Assembly: GCA_030167865.1 (NCBI GenBank)
Contig: JALAGF010000625.1
Coordinates: 1 to 35,057, forward strand
Direction of reading: 5' to 3'
Source of the DNA: Craspedostauros australis
Lineage: Eukaryota
Length of the DNA: 35,057 bases
Shown piece after piece: positions 30,931 through 34,095 of the stretch (within the stretch, counting starts at the first letter, position 1; the number at the start of each line of letters is the position of its first letter). A model generated the notes under the pieces. It made no database searches, was not told where the DNA came from, and saw nothing but the letters and a program-made list of their open reading frames with translations. The translations under genes and the position numbers were made by a program.

Positions 30931-33900
30931 ATGAACAACATGTCACTGCTGAGGACACTCGGCGACACTCAAGCGCCAATGGCTGAAGATGATCAAGCAA
31001 CACCTATCGATCTCGACTCAATCTTCGACAATGTGCTTTTCTGGGTCAACGAGTGGAGCGAAGTACCCGAAGAATTGAAGCAACTTCTGGAGGCAAAAGT
31101 GCGAAAGGACAAACCACATTTTTCGGATGAGGATGTTGAGGAGGAAGTGGAATTCCAGCTTTCGATAGAAGAATTGTGCAGGAAGCGCATTCTCAAGCAG
31201 GCCGACAAGAGTGACGACATCCAAAGTTTGGAACAAAAGCTCTCCTCCACACGTATTGCTGGAACCTTGACCGAACAATGGCTCTCGGCTTGGCTTCGTT
31301 TCCATCAAGAAATCCCCGAGTGCATCCGCAACGCTTTGTGGAAACCCAACGACGATCACAAACTCGCCGATCCTAAGAACCCACGCCAATCAGTTCTCAA
31401 CCTGTTGAAGGAGATCCGCGGTAACGACCCCAATGGCTTTCGTGGTCTACAGTACACCTCGCACACCATCAGCGATGAAGCTACTGGCTACGCACACTAC
31501 ATCGGCAAGGCCAACTTTCGACATGGAGGGAATATCGGTATGGTCCCCAAACAAGTCTTCATCAACGCGCCGATCCGACAAGGACGCCTCCACAAGGACG
31601 ACCTGATTCATGTGTACCACGAAGAGAGTGGTAGCGGCAAGACCGTGGAGCTTGCGGCGAGCGCATTCACCAGAGACGCTCTGTTTACCATCATGCTCGA
31701 CACCGACGATGTGAAGCTTCTCGATTCATCGAATTCTCTTGCGGTCAAGAAACACCGAAGGGACCAATCCTGGACGAAGCTCACAGATGAAGTCAAATCG
31801 GTCCTCACGCGAGACAAAAAAAGTCTCGGCAGACTTGTCAACTTTCTCAAAGTGTTGGATGGGAAGATGCAAAAGAAGACCACACTTTTCATCGTCGTTG
31901 GGATTGACGAAGCAAGCAAGTCCCCAAACTTCGTCCGGGCCATCATCGACAGCCACGACGACTTTGGAACGGAGCTGGGGAAGTTCATCCGGGACATATT
32001 CGCCGAAGAGGCCACGAAACAAGTCAATCCCTTTGCAGCGGGAGCACCACAAGGCTCCTCAAATGCAAACAAACTCCCCCGTTTTCTCAAGCACATTCAC
32101 ATCAAAGTCCTATTCTCTGTGGCAGGCACCGGTGCTTCCCAACCACCGACGGGATCAATCCCCAAGAGCTTCACTCACCTCAATACTTCTGCAAAGGTGA
32201 ACCCTGCAGCCGTCTACCACATTCTTCGCCGCGAATACGTGGAAGACGTCACGAATACCATCATACCAGAGTACACAGAGGTTAAGAAGTTCCCTCTTCT
32301 CAACGCCATCGTTGATTCCAACGTCCGGATGATCTCGATCTACATGCGAGTGTCAAGAAAGCAAGAAAACATCAACCGTGGCCAGGGAAAGAAGTCAAGC
32401 GAGAATGAATACGAGCAGAATGCCATCCTTTCCAAAACTTTCACCATCTTCATGAAAAGCAATGGCATGAAAACTCTGGTGCACAATCCGTACCTTGCGC
32501 GGCTCACAGCATCCCAGGCTTTGGCAGCTCTTCTTTTCCAACAGAATGAAGCTTTCAGCAAACCGCTCACCGATACTCAACTGAACAACATGGACTACGG
32601 GATCACCTTCCAACGCTTCAAGGGTGACCTGGGCGGTTCCATCATGCGTCGGTTGGTCGTCGATTATGGCTTAGTCACCGCAAGGCCACTCACGGGTGAG
32701 GATGAGAGCAAGCCGCAGGCAAGTCCGTTCGCGCTCACCGGCGCCATGCAGCTCCTTTGCCTTTGGATCATTCAAAGCGGTGAAGCAATTGCGGCTGAGA
32801 AATCGTTTCTCGGAACAACCTCAGCCAGCTTTGAAACCCTCACTGCGTTGCTGGCCGGGGCCGCCATCGCTGCGTCCTCCGTCGTGAAGAAGGATAAGCA
32901 CGGGCGCGTCGTTGCTGCTCCCGCCAATGGTCCCAATCCTAACACGGTTGGGCAGCAGGAAGCAGACATCATTGCTGCTCTGCGCAAGGTCGGGATGAAA
33001 ATCAAACCACACCCGAATGACACCCAGCCAACCCACTACACATGCAAAACGATCGGCGGAGAGAAGCTCGTGGACAAAAGCGCCGGCGATCTCTTTTGGT
33101 CTCTCAAGGGTGTCCACCCGGAACTACTTCCAAGAGACCTCGGGATTGCTCGGGTGTACTTCCACAAGTCAATGATGACTTGCGTCGAGAGCAACGCGGA
33201 CAAGCAGCGCATCATGGCTTCTACTAAAGAAGCCTTGCAGCGCGCCGCTGCTGCTGTTGCTGCTGCGAAAGCCGTGGGCCACGTGAAGGATGCTACTGCA
33301 AAAGCCGTGGATCCTGTATTTCGCAATATGTGGGTAACTTTCCAATCGGAAAACGGAGGATTGGATTCGCGTTCGCTGGCGGATTGTTCTGACGAAGAGG
33401 TCTCATCGTGGTTGAACGACTGTTACTCAATCTTCGTCGATCACGACCTACTCCACAAGCTCGTGTGGCTCTGGAAGGTCGAACAACAATGCAACGACCA
33501 GCAACACACCACGGAGGCTAGTCTCAGCGACGGCATGGCCGTGCTGGGTATCAACAACTCCACCAATACATCTCGCAGCCCACCCAGCAACGACGCGAAA
33601 CCGGCCGCATCCACTCTCGCTCCCGCCAACCCATCTCAAGGCACAACCGCAGACGTCGTGGAAATTTTCTTCAACCTGCCACTCATCCACGTTGCAGAAG
33701 GTAGCAGTGAGTTCGCAGATGCCTACGTCACCTTCCTTACGGAGGGGACGGACGCCAAGACACGTAAGAAGATCTACAGATTGCGAACAATCTGTATCCA
33801 AGCCAAAGATTACTCCGAGACTACAAGCTCAGACATGGACATTTACAAGAAAAATGTCTCCGCAGCGGCGAACCCCGGACTGCATACTCTCTTTGGCGGA

Positions 33901-34095
33901 GACCTGATATACACCGTTGCAGGTACGCAAAGCACAGTTGCTTGGGGTTTCGGCGGAGACTTTCCATACGTTCCTTTCGTGGTGGACAAGTCCATCATCC
34001 TGAAGAATCAGATGGACGGAATGGCCAAGCGCCGTAATCAAACCGCAAAACATGGCGCGCACGCTGAACTCTTCTTCGTACCCTACCCACGATAG
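30931..34095 (+). CDS. Uncharacterised P-loop NTPase with a putative C-terminal PD-(D/E)xK restriction-endonuclease-like domain (Crinkler/RHS-effector-like architecture)
   Basis: Intact 1054-codon ORF. Walker A-like HVYHEESGSGKT (31621-31644), Walker B FIVVGIDEAS (about 31888-31917), strand VLFSVAGTG, and C-terminal SSEFADAYVTF...TICIQAKDY (33703-33813). The true start is uncertain (30931, 30940 or 30979, or an upstream exon). Confidence 0.65.
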   Translation: MNNMSLLRTLGDTQAPMAEDDQATPIDLDSIFDNVLFWVNEWSEVPEELKQLLEAKVRKDKPHFSDEDVEEEVEFQLSIEELCRKRILKQADKSDDIQSLEQKLSSTRIAGTLTEQWLSAWLRFHQEIPECIRNALWKPNDDHKLADPKNPRQSVLNLLKEIRGNDPNGFRGLQYTSHTISDEATGYAHYIGKANFRHGGNIGMVPKQVFINAPIRQGRLHKDDLIHVYHEESGSGKTVELAASAFTRDALFTIMLDTDDVKLLDSSNSLAVKKHRRDQSWTKLTDEVKSVLTRDKKSLGRLVNFLKVLDGKMQKKTTLFIVVGIDEASKSPNFVRAIIDSHDDFGTELGKFIRDIFAEEATKQVNPFAAGAPQGSSNANKLPRFLKHIHIKVLFSVAGTGASQPPTGSIPKSFTHLNTSAKVNPAAVYHILRREYVEDVTNTIIPEYTEVKKFPLLNAIVDSNVRMISIYMRVSRKQENINRGQGKKSSENEYEQNAILSKTFTIFMKSNGMKTLVHNPYLARLTASQALAALLFQQNEAFSKPLTDTQLNNMDYGITFQRFKGDLGGSIMRRLVVDYGLVTARPLTGEDESKPQASPFALTGAMQLLCLWIIQSGEAIAAEKSFLGTTSASFETLTALLAGAAIAASSVVKKDKHGRVVAAPANGPNPNTVGQQEADIIAALRKVGMKIKPHPNDTQPTHYTCKTIGGEKLVDKSAGDLFWSLKGVHPELLPRDLGIARVYFHKSMMTCVESNADKQRIMASTKEALQRAAAAVAAAKAVGHVKDATAKAVDPVFRNMWVTFQSENGGLDSRSLADCSDEEVSSWLNDCYSIFVDHDLLHKLVWLWKVEQQCNDQQHTTEASLSDGMAVLGINNSTNTSRSPPSNDAKPAASTLAPANPSQGTTADVVEIFFNLPLIHVAEGSSEFADAYVTFLTEGTDAKTRKKIYRLRTICIQAKDYSETTSSDMDIYKKNVSAAANPGLHTLFGGDLIYTVAGTQSTVAWGFGGDFPYVPFVVDKSIILKNQMDGMAKRRNQTAKHGAHAELFFVPYPR

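What the first reader, a model, noticed from the sequence alone, without database searches (positions are those of the whole stretch)
30931..34095. Orphan NTPase + REase-fold protein resembling Crinkler/RHS-type conflict effectors in a diatom-like genome
Seen: an intronless 1054-aa ORF with a variant Walker A (E-E-S-G-S-G-K-T, where the first Gly is replaced by Glu), an hhhhDE Walker B followed by P.FVRAI, an hhhAGTG strand, a long helical middle, and a C-terminal F-A-D...(about 25 aa)...hhh-Q-A-K motif. A short acidic/helical header of about 110 aa precedes the NTPase. Established: D...(Q/E)xK is the catalytic signature of PD-(D/E)xK nucleases. A header + P-loop NTPase + REase architecture defines the eukaryotic CR (Crinkler/RHS) effector class known from oomycetes, chytrids and kinetoplastids, which is thought to derive from mobile elements. 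Inference: this may be a lineage-expanded nuclease effector (anti-viral, anti-parasite or selfish) in an alga, where such proteins are little characterised. It sits next to a housekeeping gene and is followed by decayed-looking DNA.
Basis: partly seen in the sequence, partly recalled or inferred. Interest (0 to 1): 0.72.

Follow-up and report, generated by a model that had tools for sequence, protein, structure and literature searches.

The report
Diatom NTPase–nuclease fusion protein family
A diatom-like alga carries a large intact gene that joins an ATP-driven switch domain to a DNA-cutting domain; it belongs to an undescribed diatom gene family that may act in defence or genetic conflict.

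Summary
The protein is not an orphan. An exhaustive HMMER search found 55 cluster representatives. All four taxa that sources name are raphid pennate diatoms, and some members come from transcriptomes. No Pfam, NCBIfam, PADLOC, PHROG or PDB-sequence match exists.

An AlphaFold model (pLDDT 75.6) shows four parts: a low-confidence acidic helical header; an AAA+/STAND-like P-loop NTPase with a helical lid; a restriction-endonuclease (PD-(D/E)xK) fold domain; and a ~265-aa insertion inside that domain. The nuclease fold's first helix lies at aa 626-650 and its beta core at aa 915-1045.

The Walker A/B residues and the E635...D930...Q957-x-K959 signature are conserved in nearly all members. D...QxK is the Mrr-type variant of the nuclease site.

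The NTPase-(HTH)-REase order matches the commonest Crinkler/RHS (CR) toxin module. Membership of that class is not shown: there is no Crinkler header, and CR profiles were not available. The gene is compositionally native, with no repeats or extra copies in the window.

Best reading: an NTP-regulated DNA endonuclease of a multi-paralogue diatom family, probably conflict- or defence-related. Its function is untested.

The parts
30931..34095 (+). Complete intronless ORF, 1054 aa plus stop
   Evidence: Full-length homologue P0002 has 43% identity over 96% of the query.
30931..31365 (+). N-terminal acidic, helical 'header' (aa 1-145), poorly conserved
   Evidence: Model helices with pLDDT 36-62. 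32 D+E against 18 K+R in the first 150 aa. Shared only with P0002 (28% identity) and with fragment P0045.
31378..32280 (+). AAA+/STAND-like P-loop NTPase core (aa ~150-450)
   Evidence: Foldseek: Cdc6 1fnn_A E 5.6e-4, prob 0.99, then ORC, NOD2, NRC, Apaf-1. VIA: PAB2304, STAND-TPR, CED-4, NLRP9, Avs3, RFC, MuB, TnsC, all Z 5-6.
31516..31530 (+). Family-specific F-R-H-x-G motif (aa 196-200) upstream of the P-loop
   Evidence: F 40/43, R 39/42, H 40/42, G 42/42 in A1. Role unknown.
31621..31644 (+). Variant Walker A, E-E-S-G-S-G-K-T (aa 231-238); first Gly of GxxxxGK[ST] replaced
   Evidence: G234 45/45, G236 44/45, K237 44/46, T238 42/46 with the other 4 Ser.
31885..31914 (+). Walker B strand LFIVVGIDEA (aa 319-328)
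   Evidence: D326 48/49, E327 44/49. Modelled strand 317-326.
32110..32133 (+). Strand LFSVAGTG (aa 394-401), candidate sensor-1 position (T400)
   Evidence: G399 46/49, T400 46/49, G401 47/49. Modelled strand 389-398. The sensor-1 role is inferred.
32281..32790 (+). Helical lid and small alpha/beta region (aa ~451-620), candidate winged-helix/HTH part
   Evidence: VIA alignment to the whole PAB2304 chain spans model 198..615 (278 aligned, Z 6.0). Invariant N464, R466, S469, N511 in A3. The HTH identity is inferred, not shown.
32806..32880 (+). Helix aa 626-650 carrying conserved E635; candidate alpha-1 helix of the nuclease fold
   Evidence: In the whole model, AF1548 aligns over 630..1026 (104 residues, rmsd 2.9, Z 5.2) and MspJI over 626..1028 (123 residues, rmsd 3.9, Z 5.2). 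These are better than with the C-terminal piece alone. E635 is 42/44. pLDDT 92-96.
32881..33672 (+). Insertion inside the nuclease fold (aa 651-914): small alpha/beta unit (680-745), helices (755-861), disordered linker (864-909)
   Evidence: Model. Low or uneven occupancy in the family alignment. Fold not identified.
33673..34065 (+). Beta-core of the PD-(D/E)xK (restriction-endonuclease) fold (aa 915-1045)
   Evidence: Domain model pLDDT 76.5. Foldseek best hit MspJI, prob 0.94-0.97, E 1.4e-2. VIA wide: 25 of 50 rows are nucleases by their own titles, top Z 6.2. Second look gives the same picture.
33718..33720 (+). D930, candidate metal-binding Asp at the start of beta-2
   Evidence: 36/36 in A2, 37/39 in A1.
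33799..33807 (+). Q957-A958-K959, the 'QxK' of a D...QxK (Mrr-type) active site at the end of beta-3
   Evidence: Q 34/36 (His in 2), K 35/36. 'PD-QXK' is the wording for the Mrr catalytic domain in passages of PMC11037411 and PMC6765204.

Best explanation
The gene encodes a member of an undescribed, multi-paralogue family so far named only from raphid pennate diatoms. The protein is a single chain built as: variable acidic helical header, then AAA+/STAND-like P-loop NTPase with helical lid (and probably a winged-helix part), then a restriction-endonuclease-fold domain. That last domain is split by a ~265-aa insertion. Its first helix carries E635, and its beta-hairpin carries D930 and Q957-x-K959. 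Proposed mechanism (inferred): ATP binding and hydrolysis at the intact Walker A/B site switches the conformation or assembly state of the protein. This licenses the Mrr-type D...QxK, divalent-metal-dependent nuclease to cut DNA. The most likely biological setting is genetic conflict: defence against viruses or mobile DNA, or a once-selfish module now resident. It is probably not core housekeeping. Shown here: the fold classes, the conservation of catalytic-type residues, the family's existence and paralogy, and the native composition of the gene. Inferred: NTP dependence of cleavage, DNA as substrate, and the conflict role.
For: Family: 55 representatives at E<=1e-3 among 1.84 billion. All 4 taxa named by sources are Bacillariophycidae: Craspedostauros australis, a Bacillariaceae MAG, Seminavis robusta and Nitzschia sp.. 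Several members are MMETSP transcripts, and the Seminavis entry is labelled 'expressed unknown protein'.
NTPase: Foldseek matches Cdc6, ORC, NOD2, NRC and Apaf-1 with probability up to 0.99 and best E 5.6e-4. VIA gives Z 5-6 to PAB2304, STAND-TPR, CED-4, NLRP9, Avs3, RFC, MuB and TnsC. K237, D326, E327, T400 and R466 are invariant in 20/20 full-length members.
Nuclease: 25 of the 50 VIA-wide rows are restriction enzymes, nickases, resolvases or other nucleases by title. The top row (Upx, Z 6.2, rmsd 3.6, 94 aligned) matches the C-terminal end of that chain, where the paper's abstract places the PD-(D/E)XK core of this anti-phage nuclease. Foldseek's best hit is MspJI at prob 0.94-0.97. The second look gives the same picture. 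D930 is 36/36, K959 35/36, Q957 34/36 and E635 42/44. D930 starts strand 931-940 and Q957/K959 end the paired strand 947-958, so they should lie side by side in the hairpin (inferred from topology).
Paralogy and divergence: two members from one transcriptome share only 23% identity. Bacillariaceae members fall in different clades with starred support.
Native gene: GC3 is 0.62 (neighbours 0.55-0.77) and codon-usage correlation is 0.80 (neighbours 0.72-0.86).
Against: All structural scores are modest. The best Z is 6.2 for the nuclease and 6.0 for the NTPase, and the tool warns that Z under 8 can reflect only a common arrangement. No sequence library recognises either domain. Profile-profile comparison with Mrr is not significant (P 0.084 and 0.055). 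I could not read model coordinates, so the co-location of E635, D930, Q957 and K959 is inferred from topology and alignment ranges only. The window's protein has Leu at 992 where 34 of 37 members have Arg, and Ala at 931 where 35 of 38 have Gly, so this copy may be functionally altered. Nothing ties the gene to viruses, mobile elements or stress: no relatives in viral contigs, no terminal repeats, and housekeeping neighbours. Copy number in this genome is unknown. No activity has been measured for any member.
Confidence: 0.55

Rival explanations
1. It is a true member by descent of the Crinkler/RHS (CR) effector superfamily. On this reading the NTPase-HTH-REase part is homologous to a CR toxin module, joined here to a new alpha-helical header, and used inside the cell or against other cells.
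For: The domain order matches the commonest CR C-terminal module, 'NTPase + HTH + REase' (passages of PMC5289972; PMC11064341). CR headers include unrelated alpha-helical types besides the Ubl type, and CR proteins occur in free-living eukaryotes (same review passages). In the ESM-Atlas feature search, 4 of the 30 hits are 'Crinkler family protein' clusters (best 0.94, 201 of 256 shared features). The top hits (0.98) are unnamed eukaryotic clusters from Rhodophyta and Mucoromycota. Headers differ among members: 19 BLAST-unrelated groups among 22 headers.
Against: There is no Crinkler header: PF20147 is absent in P0001 at E<=10 and in 0 of 56 members at E<=0.01, and LxLFLAK/HVLVxxP-like motifs are in 0 of 56. 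No sequence or profile comparison with CR-NTPase or CR-REase families could be made, because Zhang et al. 2016 and its alignments are not held. Atlas scores carry no E-value, and the query's recognition value (2169) is below the 2300 that 91 in 100 known-family proteins reach. The C-terminal domain alone scored under 0.9 everywhere. Header diversity can be explained by fast divergence: P0001 and P0002 share 28% identity in the header against 43% over the whole alignment. The host is a phototroph with no known need for delivered effectors.
Confidence: 0.3
2. It is a lineage-specific housekeeping factor, for example a DNA repair, replication-restart or chromatin enzyme of pennate diatoms, with no role in conflict.
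For: The gene is compositionally native. It sits among ordinary genes: prefoldin, a glycosyltransferase, SRR1 and a REV1-like polymerase. No extra copies or remnants lie in the window. Catalytic residues are under strong conservation, and relatives are expressed. AAA+ plus nuclease combinations also occur in repair.
Against: The family has deep paralogous subfamilies with very long branches (median end branch 0.68 changes per column) and a degenerate paralogue, P0037, that lacks the Walker B Glu and the GTG strand. No Pfam, NCBIfam or PDB relative exists. Only 55 clusters turned up in 1.84 billion representatives. N-termini are highly variable.
Confidence: 0.2
3. It is a domesticated or still active transposon module: a MuB/TnsC-like AAA+ regulator fused to a TnsA-like REase-fold nuclease.
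For: MuB (4bs1_B Z 5.7; 8xvb_A Z 5.5) and TnsC (9g0f_A Z 5.1; 7m99_A Z 5.0) are among the NTPase matches. The review states that NTPase+REase pairs are linked with transposable elements in prokaryotes (PMC5289972 passages).
Against: Those rows are tied with dozens of other AAA+/STAND proteins within 1 Z unit. There are no terminal inverted repeats or target duplications around the gene: the best flanking pair is 15 nt at 87%. No transposase or integrase lies nearby. No relatives were found in prokaryote genomes by the pattern scan. No second copy is in the window.
Confidence: 0.08
4. The C-terminal domain keeps the fold but no longer cuts. The protein would then be an NTP-dependent DNA-binding or scaffolding protein.
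For: Gln replaces the usual acidic residue of (D/E)xK. This copy has lost the family's near-invariant R992 (Leu here, against Arg in 34/37). Sequence kinship to active Mrr enzymes is not demonstrable.
Against: D...QxK is the recognised active Mrr-type configuration (passages in PMC11037411 and PMC6765204). The best Foldseek match is the active enzyme MspJI. E635, D930, Q957, K959 and D960 are all retained in this copy and in nearly all members, which is hard to explain without catalysis.
Confidence: 0.1

Closest known systems
Crinkler/RHS (CR) effectors with an NTPase + HTH + REase C-terminal module (Zhang et al. 2016, known to me here only through passages of PMC5289972, PMC11064341 and PMC6131194)
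   Same: Same order of parts: a non-catalytic N-terminal header, a P-loop NTPase, a helical/HTH region and a restriction-endonuclease-fold domain. Eukaryotic, no signal peptide expected, divergent multi-member families.
   Different: No Ubl/LxLFLAK header and no PF20147 match. Homology of the NTPase and REase to the CR families is untested. The nuclease fold is split by a ~265-aa insertion. The host is a photosynthetic diatom, and all named members are diatoms.
Mrr / MspJI-type 'PD-QxK' nucleases (Type IV modification-dependent restriction enzymes)
   Same: D...QxK catalytic signature on a beta-hairpin. MspJI is the best Foldseek match (prob 0.94-0.97). hhalign places the family's ADG, QAK and RLLCVAS motifs on Mrr's IDG, QAK and RGVFITTSG.
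   Different: There is no Pfam Mrr_cat match, and profile comparison is not significant (P 0.055-0.084). No SRA or winged-helix modification reader was identified. Eukaryotic and fused to an NTPase.
Bacterial single-chain or two-gene nuclease-NTPase defence proteins (Avs STAND NTPases with nuclease effectors; Upx; nuclease-NTPase systems of bioRxiv 10.1101/2025.07.10.664194)
   Same: A STAND/AAA+-like NTPase is combined with a PD-(D/E)xK nuclease. Avs3 (8dgc_A, Z 5.9) and Upx (9wuf_A, Z 6.2) are among the best structural matches to the two halves.
   Different: No PADLOC model matches (0 of 20 recurrent). In Avs proteins, as I recall, the nuclease is N-terminal and a long C-terminal repeat sensor is present; neither applies here. 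No relatives were found in prokaryote genomes by the pattern scan.
Cdc6/ORC and STAND (Apaf-1/CED-4/NLR) NTPases
   Same: Best fold matches for aa ~150-620, including the helical lid. Intact Walker A Lys and Walker B Asp-Glu.
   Different: No Pfam AAA, NACHT or NB-ARC match. The first Walker A Gly is replaced. A family-specific FRHxG motif is present. No LRR, WD40 or TPR sensor. A C-terminal nuclease is present.

Membership tests
Crinkler/RHS (CR) effector class | Crinkler N-terminal header (Ubl fold with LxLFLAK, ending in HVLVxxP; Pfam PF20147) | tested here: not met
   0 Pfam families for P0001 at E<=10. PF20147 in 0 of 56 members at E<=0.01. Motif regexes hit 0 of 56. The header models as helices only, at low confidence.
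Crinkler/RHS (CR) effector class | One of the alternative alpha-helical CR header families | not testable with these tools
   No profiles or sequences of those headers were available. Zhang et al. 2016 is not held.
Crinkler/RHS (CR) effector class | C-terminal toxin module with the architecture NTPase + HTH + REase | tested here: met
   Met at the level of fold and order of parts: NTPase, helical lid/putative wHTH (inferred), REase fold.
Crinkler/RHS (CR) effector class | Sequence or profile homology to a CR-NTPase and a CR-REase family | not testable with these tools
The only hint is the Atlas feature score of 0.94 to a Crinkler cluster.
Crinkler/RHS (CR) effector class | Lineage-specific expansion into many paralogues | tested here: inconclusive
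   At least 2 divergent members in one transcriptome and several deep clades. But the window's genome is not held, and only one copy lies in the 35-kb window.
PD-(D/E)xK (restriction-endonuclease fold) nucleases | alpha-beta-beta-beta-alpha-beta core fold | tested here: met
   25 of 50 VIA-wide rows are nucleases by title, with Z 3.6-6.2. Foldseek best hit is MspJI at prob 0.94-0.97. The second look agrees. Scores are modest.
PD-(D/E)xK (restriction-endonuclease fold) nucleases | Conserved Asp at the start of beta-2 and (D/E/Q)xK on beta-3 | tested here: met
   D930 36/36, Q957 34/36, K959 35/36 in A2. Strands 931-940 and 947-958 form the hairpin.
PD-(D/E)xK (restriction-endonuclease fold) nucleases | Acidic residue on the first helix that completes the metal site | tested here: inconclusive
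   E635 is 42/44. Helix 626-650 is included in the AF1548 and MspJI alignments of the whole model. Coordinates could not be inspected.
PD-(D/E)xK (restriction-endonuclease fold) nucleases | Metal-dependent phosphodiester cleavage | not testable with these tools
   Needs biochemistry.
Mrr-like catalytic domain (Pfam PF04471, 'PD-QxK') | Match to the Mrr_cat profile | tested here: not met
   No Pfam hit for P0001 or its C-terminal part at E<=10, and none recurrent in 36 members.
Mrr-like catalytic domain (Pfam PF04471, 'PD-QxK') | Profile-profile similarity to Mrr orthologues | tested here: inconclusive
   hhalign gives P 0.084 against E. coli Mrr, with D, QxK and the following strand in register. 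It gives P 0.055 against a 79-sequence Mrr profile, with only the QAK strand aligned.
AAA+/STAND P-loop NTPases | Walker A GxxxxGK[ST] and Walker B hhhhD[DE] | tested here: met
   Variant Walker A (x-x-S-G-S-G-K-T, first Gly replaced) with K237 44/46. Walker B D326 48/49 and E327 44/49.
AAA+/STAND P-loop NTPases | Fold similarity including the helical lid | tested here: met
   Foldseek best E 5.6e-4, prob 0.99. VIA Z 5-6 over model 145-645. The clade within AAA+/STAND is not resolved because the rows are tied.
AAA+/STAND P-loop NTPases | Match to a curated AAA, NACHT, NB-ARC or AAA_16 profile | tested here: not met
   0 Pfam families for P0001. AAA_16 was seen in 1 of 36 members at E 0.1 only.
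STAND/NLR-type immune receptors | C-terminal repeat sensor (LRR, WD40, TPR) | tested here: not met
   No repeat family in Pfam. The model shows no solenoid after the NTPase.
Known anti-phage defence proteins (PADLOC-DB) | Match to a PADLOC model | tested here: not met
   0 families for P0001. One member of 20 matched BrxF at E 0.019.

The most novel reading that the evidence does not exclude
The family is a diatom innate-immunity device: a single-chain, STAND-like NTPase-nuclease sensor. It would be a eukaryotic counterpart of bacterial Avs and nuclease-NTPase systems. The variable N-terminal header or the internal insertion would detect a viral or parasite cue and trigger ATP-dependent assembly, and the Mrr-type nuclease would then destroy invader or host DNA. 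That would be a new class of eukaryotic immune effector in a globally important phytoplankton group.
Probability: 0.2. Interest if true: 0.8.

Novelty: new variant of a known kind. Interest (0 to 1): 0.5.

Why it matters
Diatoms carry out a large share of ocean photosynthesis, yet their defences against viruses and parasites are almost unknown at the molecular level. This is a conserved, expressed diatom family that couples an ATP switch to an intact-looking nuclease. No curated library recognises it. That makes it a concrete candidate for such a defence or conflict system, and it can be tested with standard biochemistry and with diatom genetics. If it proves homologous to CR toxin modules, it would extend that class to phototrophic stramenopiles and show the module working without the Crinkler delivery header. 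The split nuclease fold with a large internal insertion is also an unusual structural arrangement.

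Tried and rejected
- Sequence libraries: Pfam, PDB by phmmer and by family profile, and PADLOC, NCBIfam and PHROGs gave nothing recurrent.
- Word-indexed homologue search: only P0002 with the single protein, and 3 hits with the profile. 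That tool's candidate filter misses this family; the exhaustive search did not.
- Own genome: not held, so paralogue counts and synteny could not be done.
- Collection scans: viral contigs with the protein and with alignment A3 found no relatives. Prokaryote genomes found none. Metagenome contigs gave one 3.5-kb contig, L001, too short for context. Alignment A1 was too loose for the pattern scans, so I built A3.
- Mobile-element signs: no convincing inverted or direct repeats flank the gene, and there is one trivial 10-nt tandem array. The other NTPase gene in the window (AAA_16, 16506-20681) is unrelated.
- Header modularity: 19 BLAST groups among 22 headers. Rejected as a test because fast divergence explains it equally well.
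- Mrr kinship by hhalign: not significant.
- ESM Atlas on the C-terminal domain alone: all scores under 0.9, including an RHSP-bearing cluster at 0.75. Leads only.
- BFVD fold search: generic AAA+ and NLR-like viral proteins only.
- Self-association of the nuclease domain (complex prediction, two copies): no verdict.
- Sequencing runs: no RNA holder listed. The single holder X1 is 'RNA?' by guess and is contigs only, so it says nothing firm on expression.
- Literature: Zhang et al. 2016 is not held under DOI, PMC id or PubMed id. Searches for 'Crinkler' + 'diatom' and for 'diatom', 'STAND', 'NTPase', 'restriction endonuclease' found no paper describing this family. The one diatom-infection preprint refers to Crinklers of the oomycete parasite.
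- Earlier scan notes: none for this genome or sequence.

Full report
**The observation.** The window holds an uninterrupted 1054-codon ORF at 30931..34095 on the + strand.
- EESGSGKT at aa 231-238
- LFIVVGIDEA-SKSPNFVRAI at 319-338
- LFSVAGTG at 394-401
- FAD at 928-930
- ICIQAK at 954-959

The rest of the window is ordinary eukaryotic gene space:
- a REV1-like Y-family polymerase with BRCT
- an ankyrin-BTB protein
- SRR1
- a large AAA_16 ATPase
- a Branch-type glycosyltransferase
- a prefoldin gene directly upstream on the opposite strand

The best named relatives of the SRR1 neighbour are the diatoms Mayamaea and Attheya, then brown algae, at only about 33-36% identity. The host is therefore an ochrophyte, plausibly a diatom, with no close sequenced relative.

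**The gene is not an orphan.** The word-indexed search found a single full-length homologue, P0002, at 43% identity and 96% coverage. The exhaustive HMMER search of 1.84 billion cluster representatives found 55 proteins at E<=1e-3, 38 at <=1e-10 and 6 at <=1e-30. The shared core is aa ~180-660, and the C-terminal ~140 aa are shared by about 35 of 56 rows.

I looked up 30 clusters. Four carry a taxon name, and all four are raphid pennate diatoms:
- Craspedostauros australis
- a Bacillariaceae MAG
- Seminavis robusta ('expressed unknown protein')
- Nitzschia sp. RCC80

Several others are MMETSP transcripts, so relatives are expressed. One member lies on a 3.2-Mb contig.

No curated library recognises the family:
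- Pfam gave 0 hits for P0001 at E<=10 and nothing recurrent in 56 or 36 members.
- PADLOC, NCBIfam and PHROGs gave nothing recurrent in 20 members.
- PDB sequences gave nothing by phmmer or by the family profile.

**Conservation.** These 26 columns are invariant in 20 full-length members (A3): F196 R197 H198 G200; S233 G234 G236 K237; S244 R248; D326 E327; G399 T400 G401 G408; P455 N464 R466 S469; N511 G512; G580; D930; K959; G989.

Over all rows that cover each column in A1:

| Residue | Count |
|---|---|
| K237 | 44/46 |
| D326 | 48/49 |
| E327 | 44/49 |
| E635 | 42/44 |
| D930 | 37/39 |
| Q957 | 34/36 (His in the other 2) |
| K959 | 35/36 |
| D960 | 37/38 |

So both the NTPase site and the candidate nuclease site are under strong constraint. 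The window's copy departs from the family at two near-invariant positions. It has Leu at 992 where 34 of 37 have Arg, and Ala at 931 where 35 of 38 have Gly.

**Structure.** AlphaFold2 with the 56-row alignment gave mean pLDDT 75.6 and pTM 0.78. The layout is:
- **Header, aa 1-145:** helical but of low confidence.
- **NTPase, aa ~150-450:** a five-stranded P-loop core with strands at 226-229, 253-257, 317-326, 389-398 and 414-416. The Walker A helix follows the first strand, Walker B sits on the third, and the GTG motif ends the fourth. A helical lid region follows.

Foldseek against the PDB returned Cdc6 (1fnn_A, E 5.6e-4, prob 0.99), ORC subunits, NOD2, NRC2/3/4, Apaf-1, CED-4, NLRC4, PAB2304 and classical AAA+ proteins. 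The Foldseek-independent VIA search returned the following, all at Z 5-6 and therefore tied:
- PAB2304 (Z 6.0, 278 aligned, model 198..615)
- a STAND-TPR protein
- CED-4, NLRP9 and Avs3
- RFC
- MuB and TnsC
- ORC

The fold class (AAA+/STAND-like) is clear. The clade is not.

**The nuclease domain.** Folded alone (aa 901-1054, pLDDT 76.5), the C-terminal region runs beta-beta-beta-alpha-alpha-beta-alpha. Foldseek's best PDB hits are four MspJI chains (prob 0.69-0.97, best E 1.4e-2), then FokI and R.BspD6I more weakly.

In the VIA wide search, 25 of the 50 listed rows are restriction endonucleases, nickases, Holliday-junction resolvases, or splicing, repair or CRISPR-ancillary nucleases by their own titles. 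The top row is Upx (Z 6.2, rmsd 3.6, 94 aligned). It matches the C-terminal end of that chain, and the paper's abstract says the C-terminal domain of this anti-phage nuclease holds its PD-(D/E)XK core. Many of the remaining rows (AF1548, XisH-like, CdiA-CT, TseT, Card1, Cap4, HamA, R2, BbvCI) are REase-fold proteins by my recollection. The second look at Foldseek's top 1000 chains gives the same picture.

The scores are modest. The tool warns that Z under 8 may be only a common arrangement, so the assignment rests on two things together: the uniform kind of hit, and the conserved D...QxK motif.

D930 begins strand 931-940 and Q957-A-K959 ends the paired strand 947-958. That is the canonical position of the PD and (D/E)xK motifs on the hairpin. 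'PD-QXK' is the published wording for the Mrr catalytic domain (passages in PMC11037411 and PMC6765204).

**A split nuclease fold.** When the whole model is searched, the nuclease hits extend back to residue ~626-630:
- AF1548 aligns over 630..1026 with 104 residues at rmsd 2.9 A (Z 5.2). With the C-terminal piece alone it aligns 96 residues at 5.0 A.
- MspJI aligns over 626..1028 with 123 residues at rmsd 3.9 A. With the C-terminal piece alone it aligns 108 residues at 5.7 A.

Helix 631-650 has pLDDT 92-96 and carries E635 (42/44). It therefore appears to be the first helix of the fold, which in many PD-(D/E)xK enzymes supplies an acidic ligand (the latter from general knowledge). The ~265 residues between it and the beta core (aa 651-914) form a small confident alpha/beta unit, less confident helices and a disordered linker. 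I could not assign a fold to this insertion or read coordinates to measure distances.

**Tests of kinship to Mrr.** hhalign of the C-terminal family profile against E. coli Mrr aligned ADGxVTF with IDGVISL, QAKDY with QAKRW, and RLLCVAS with RGVFITTSG, but at P 0.084. Against a profile of 79 Mrr orthologues (Neff 2.8) only the QAK strand aligned, at P 0.055. Sequence-level membership of the Mrr family is therefore not shown.

**The Crinkler/CR question.** According to review passages (PMC5289972; also PMC11064341 and PMC6131194), CR proteins combine a header with enzymatic C-termini. The header is usually a Ubl domain with LxLFLAK but is sometimes an unrelated helical domain. The commonest C-terminal module is NTPase + HTH + REase. 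The REase is thought to be the toxic part and the NTPase its regulator.

The present protein has that order of parts. It lacks the Crinkler header: PF20147 is absent, and the motifs are in 0 of 56 members. Homology to the CR-NTPase and CR-REase families could not be tested, because the defining paper and its alignments are not held and no CR sequences could be obtained.

The ESM-Atlas feature search puts unnamed eukaryotic clusters (Rhodophyta, Mucoromycota) at 0.98. Four 'Crinkler family protein' clusters appear among the 30 hits (best 0.94, 201 of 256 shared features). This is a lead. I therefore treat 'works like a CR module' as plausible and 'is a CR family member' as open.

**Family dynamics.** Two members from the same transcriptome (MMETSP1442) share 23% identity over 575 aa (E 5e-37). 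They are P0059, which lies in the cluster of P0003, and P0037. P0037 has lost the Walker B Glu, the FRHxG motif and the GTG strand.

I built a quick IQ-TREE tree of 35 rows: the 32 of the 56 family rows that have at least 640 aa (the other 24 were left out) plus P0059, P0074 and P0075. It shows deep clades with starred support and long branches. The two Bacillariaceae members fall in different clades, and the window's protein forms a long-branched pair with P0002. This is a multi-paralogue, fast-evolving family, not a single conserved orthologue. N-terminal headers fall into 19 BLAST-unrelated groups among 22, but fast divergence explains that as well as module swapping does.

**Local context.** The gene is compositionally native: GC3 0.62 against 0.55-0.77 in neighbours, and codon-usage correlation 0.80 against 0.72-0.86. 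There are no flanking terminal repeats, no second copy or remnant in the window, and no relatives in viral contigs or prokaryote genomes by pattern scans. So nothing here marks it as recently transferred or mobile.

**Verdict.** The protein is a P-loop NTPase fused to an REase-fold domain with a conserved Mrr-type D...QxK site. The specific filing as a Crinkler/RHS effector is unproven. The 'orphan' and 'decayed flank' remarks are wrong or unsupported. The most likely function is an NTP-regulated DNA endonuclease used in some form of genetic conflict or defence in pennate diatoms. This remains an inference until activity and biology are tested.

Noticed in passing
window 33904-33906 (aa 992) and 33721-33723 (aa 931): The window's protein has Leu where 34 of 37 family members have Arg (the motif FG-x-x-R-LLCV), and Ala where 35 of 38 have Gly right after the catalytic Asp. 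Its closest homologue P0002 keeps the Arg. This copy may have altered activity.
   Followed up: partly
window 30500-34500, run X1: The single public run holding the stretch has near-identical pieces, including a 632-nt contig over 33858-34486 with 1 mismatch. It also has pieces at 95-99% identity, loose ends at 31233 and 31301, and one contig that skips 250 nt (33217 to 33468, ends CT..TG, not an intron signature). This suggests a second allele or a close paralogue in that organism.
   Followed up: partly
P0037 and P0059 (family members from transcriptome MMETSP1442): One organism carries a canonical member and a very divergent one (23% identity). The divergent one has lost the Walker B Glu, the FRHxG motif and the GTG strand, so it is a possible inactive regulatory paralogue.
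   Followed up: partly
window 16506-20681 (+): A second large NTPase gene of 1391 aa with an AAA_16 domain (E 8.8e-16). It is unrelated in sequence to the finding. It was not examined further.
   Followed up: partly
window 3573-8818 (+): A REV1-like Y-family polymerase (BRCT, IMS, IMS_C) is split over two overlapping ORFs (3573-6560 and 6548-8818). That implies a short intron or a frameshift at about 6550.
   Followed up: no
window 28567-29554 (-): The prefoldin-domain gene upstream of the finding is split over two overlapping minus-strand ORFs (28567-29256/29316 and 29129-29554). This is consistent with an intron, whereas the finding's gene has none.
   Followed up: no
window 494-2662 (-), 12998-14863 (-), 20847-21671 (+): Three long ORFs (722, 621 and 274 aa) have no Pfam match at E<=1e-3.
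   Followed up: no
window 31516-31530 (aa 196-200): An F-R-H-x-G motif about 35 residues before the P-loop is invariant in 20 of 20 full-length members. I know no counterpart in AAA+/STAND NTPases, and its role is unexplained.
   Followed up: partly
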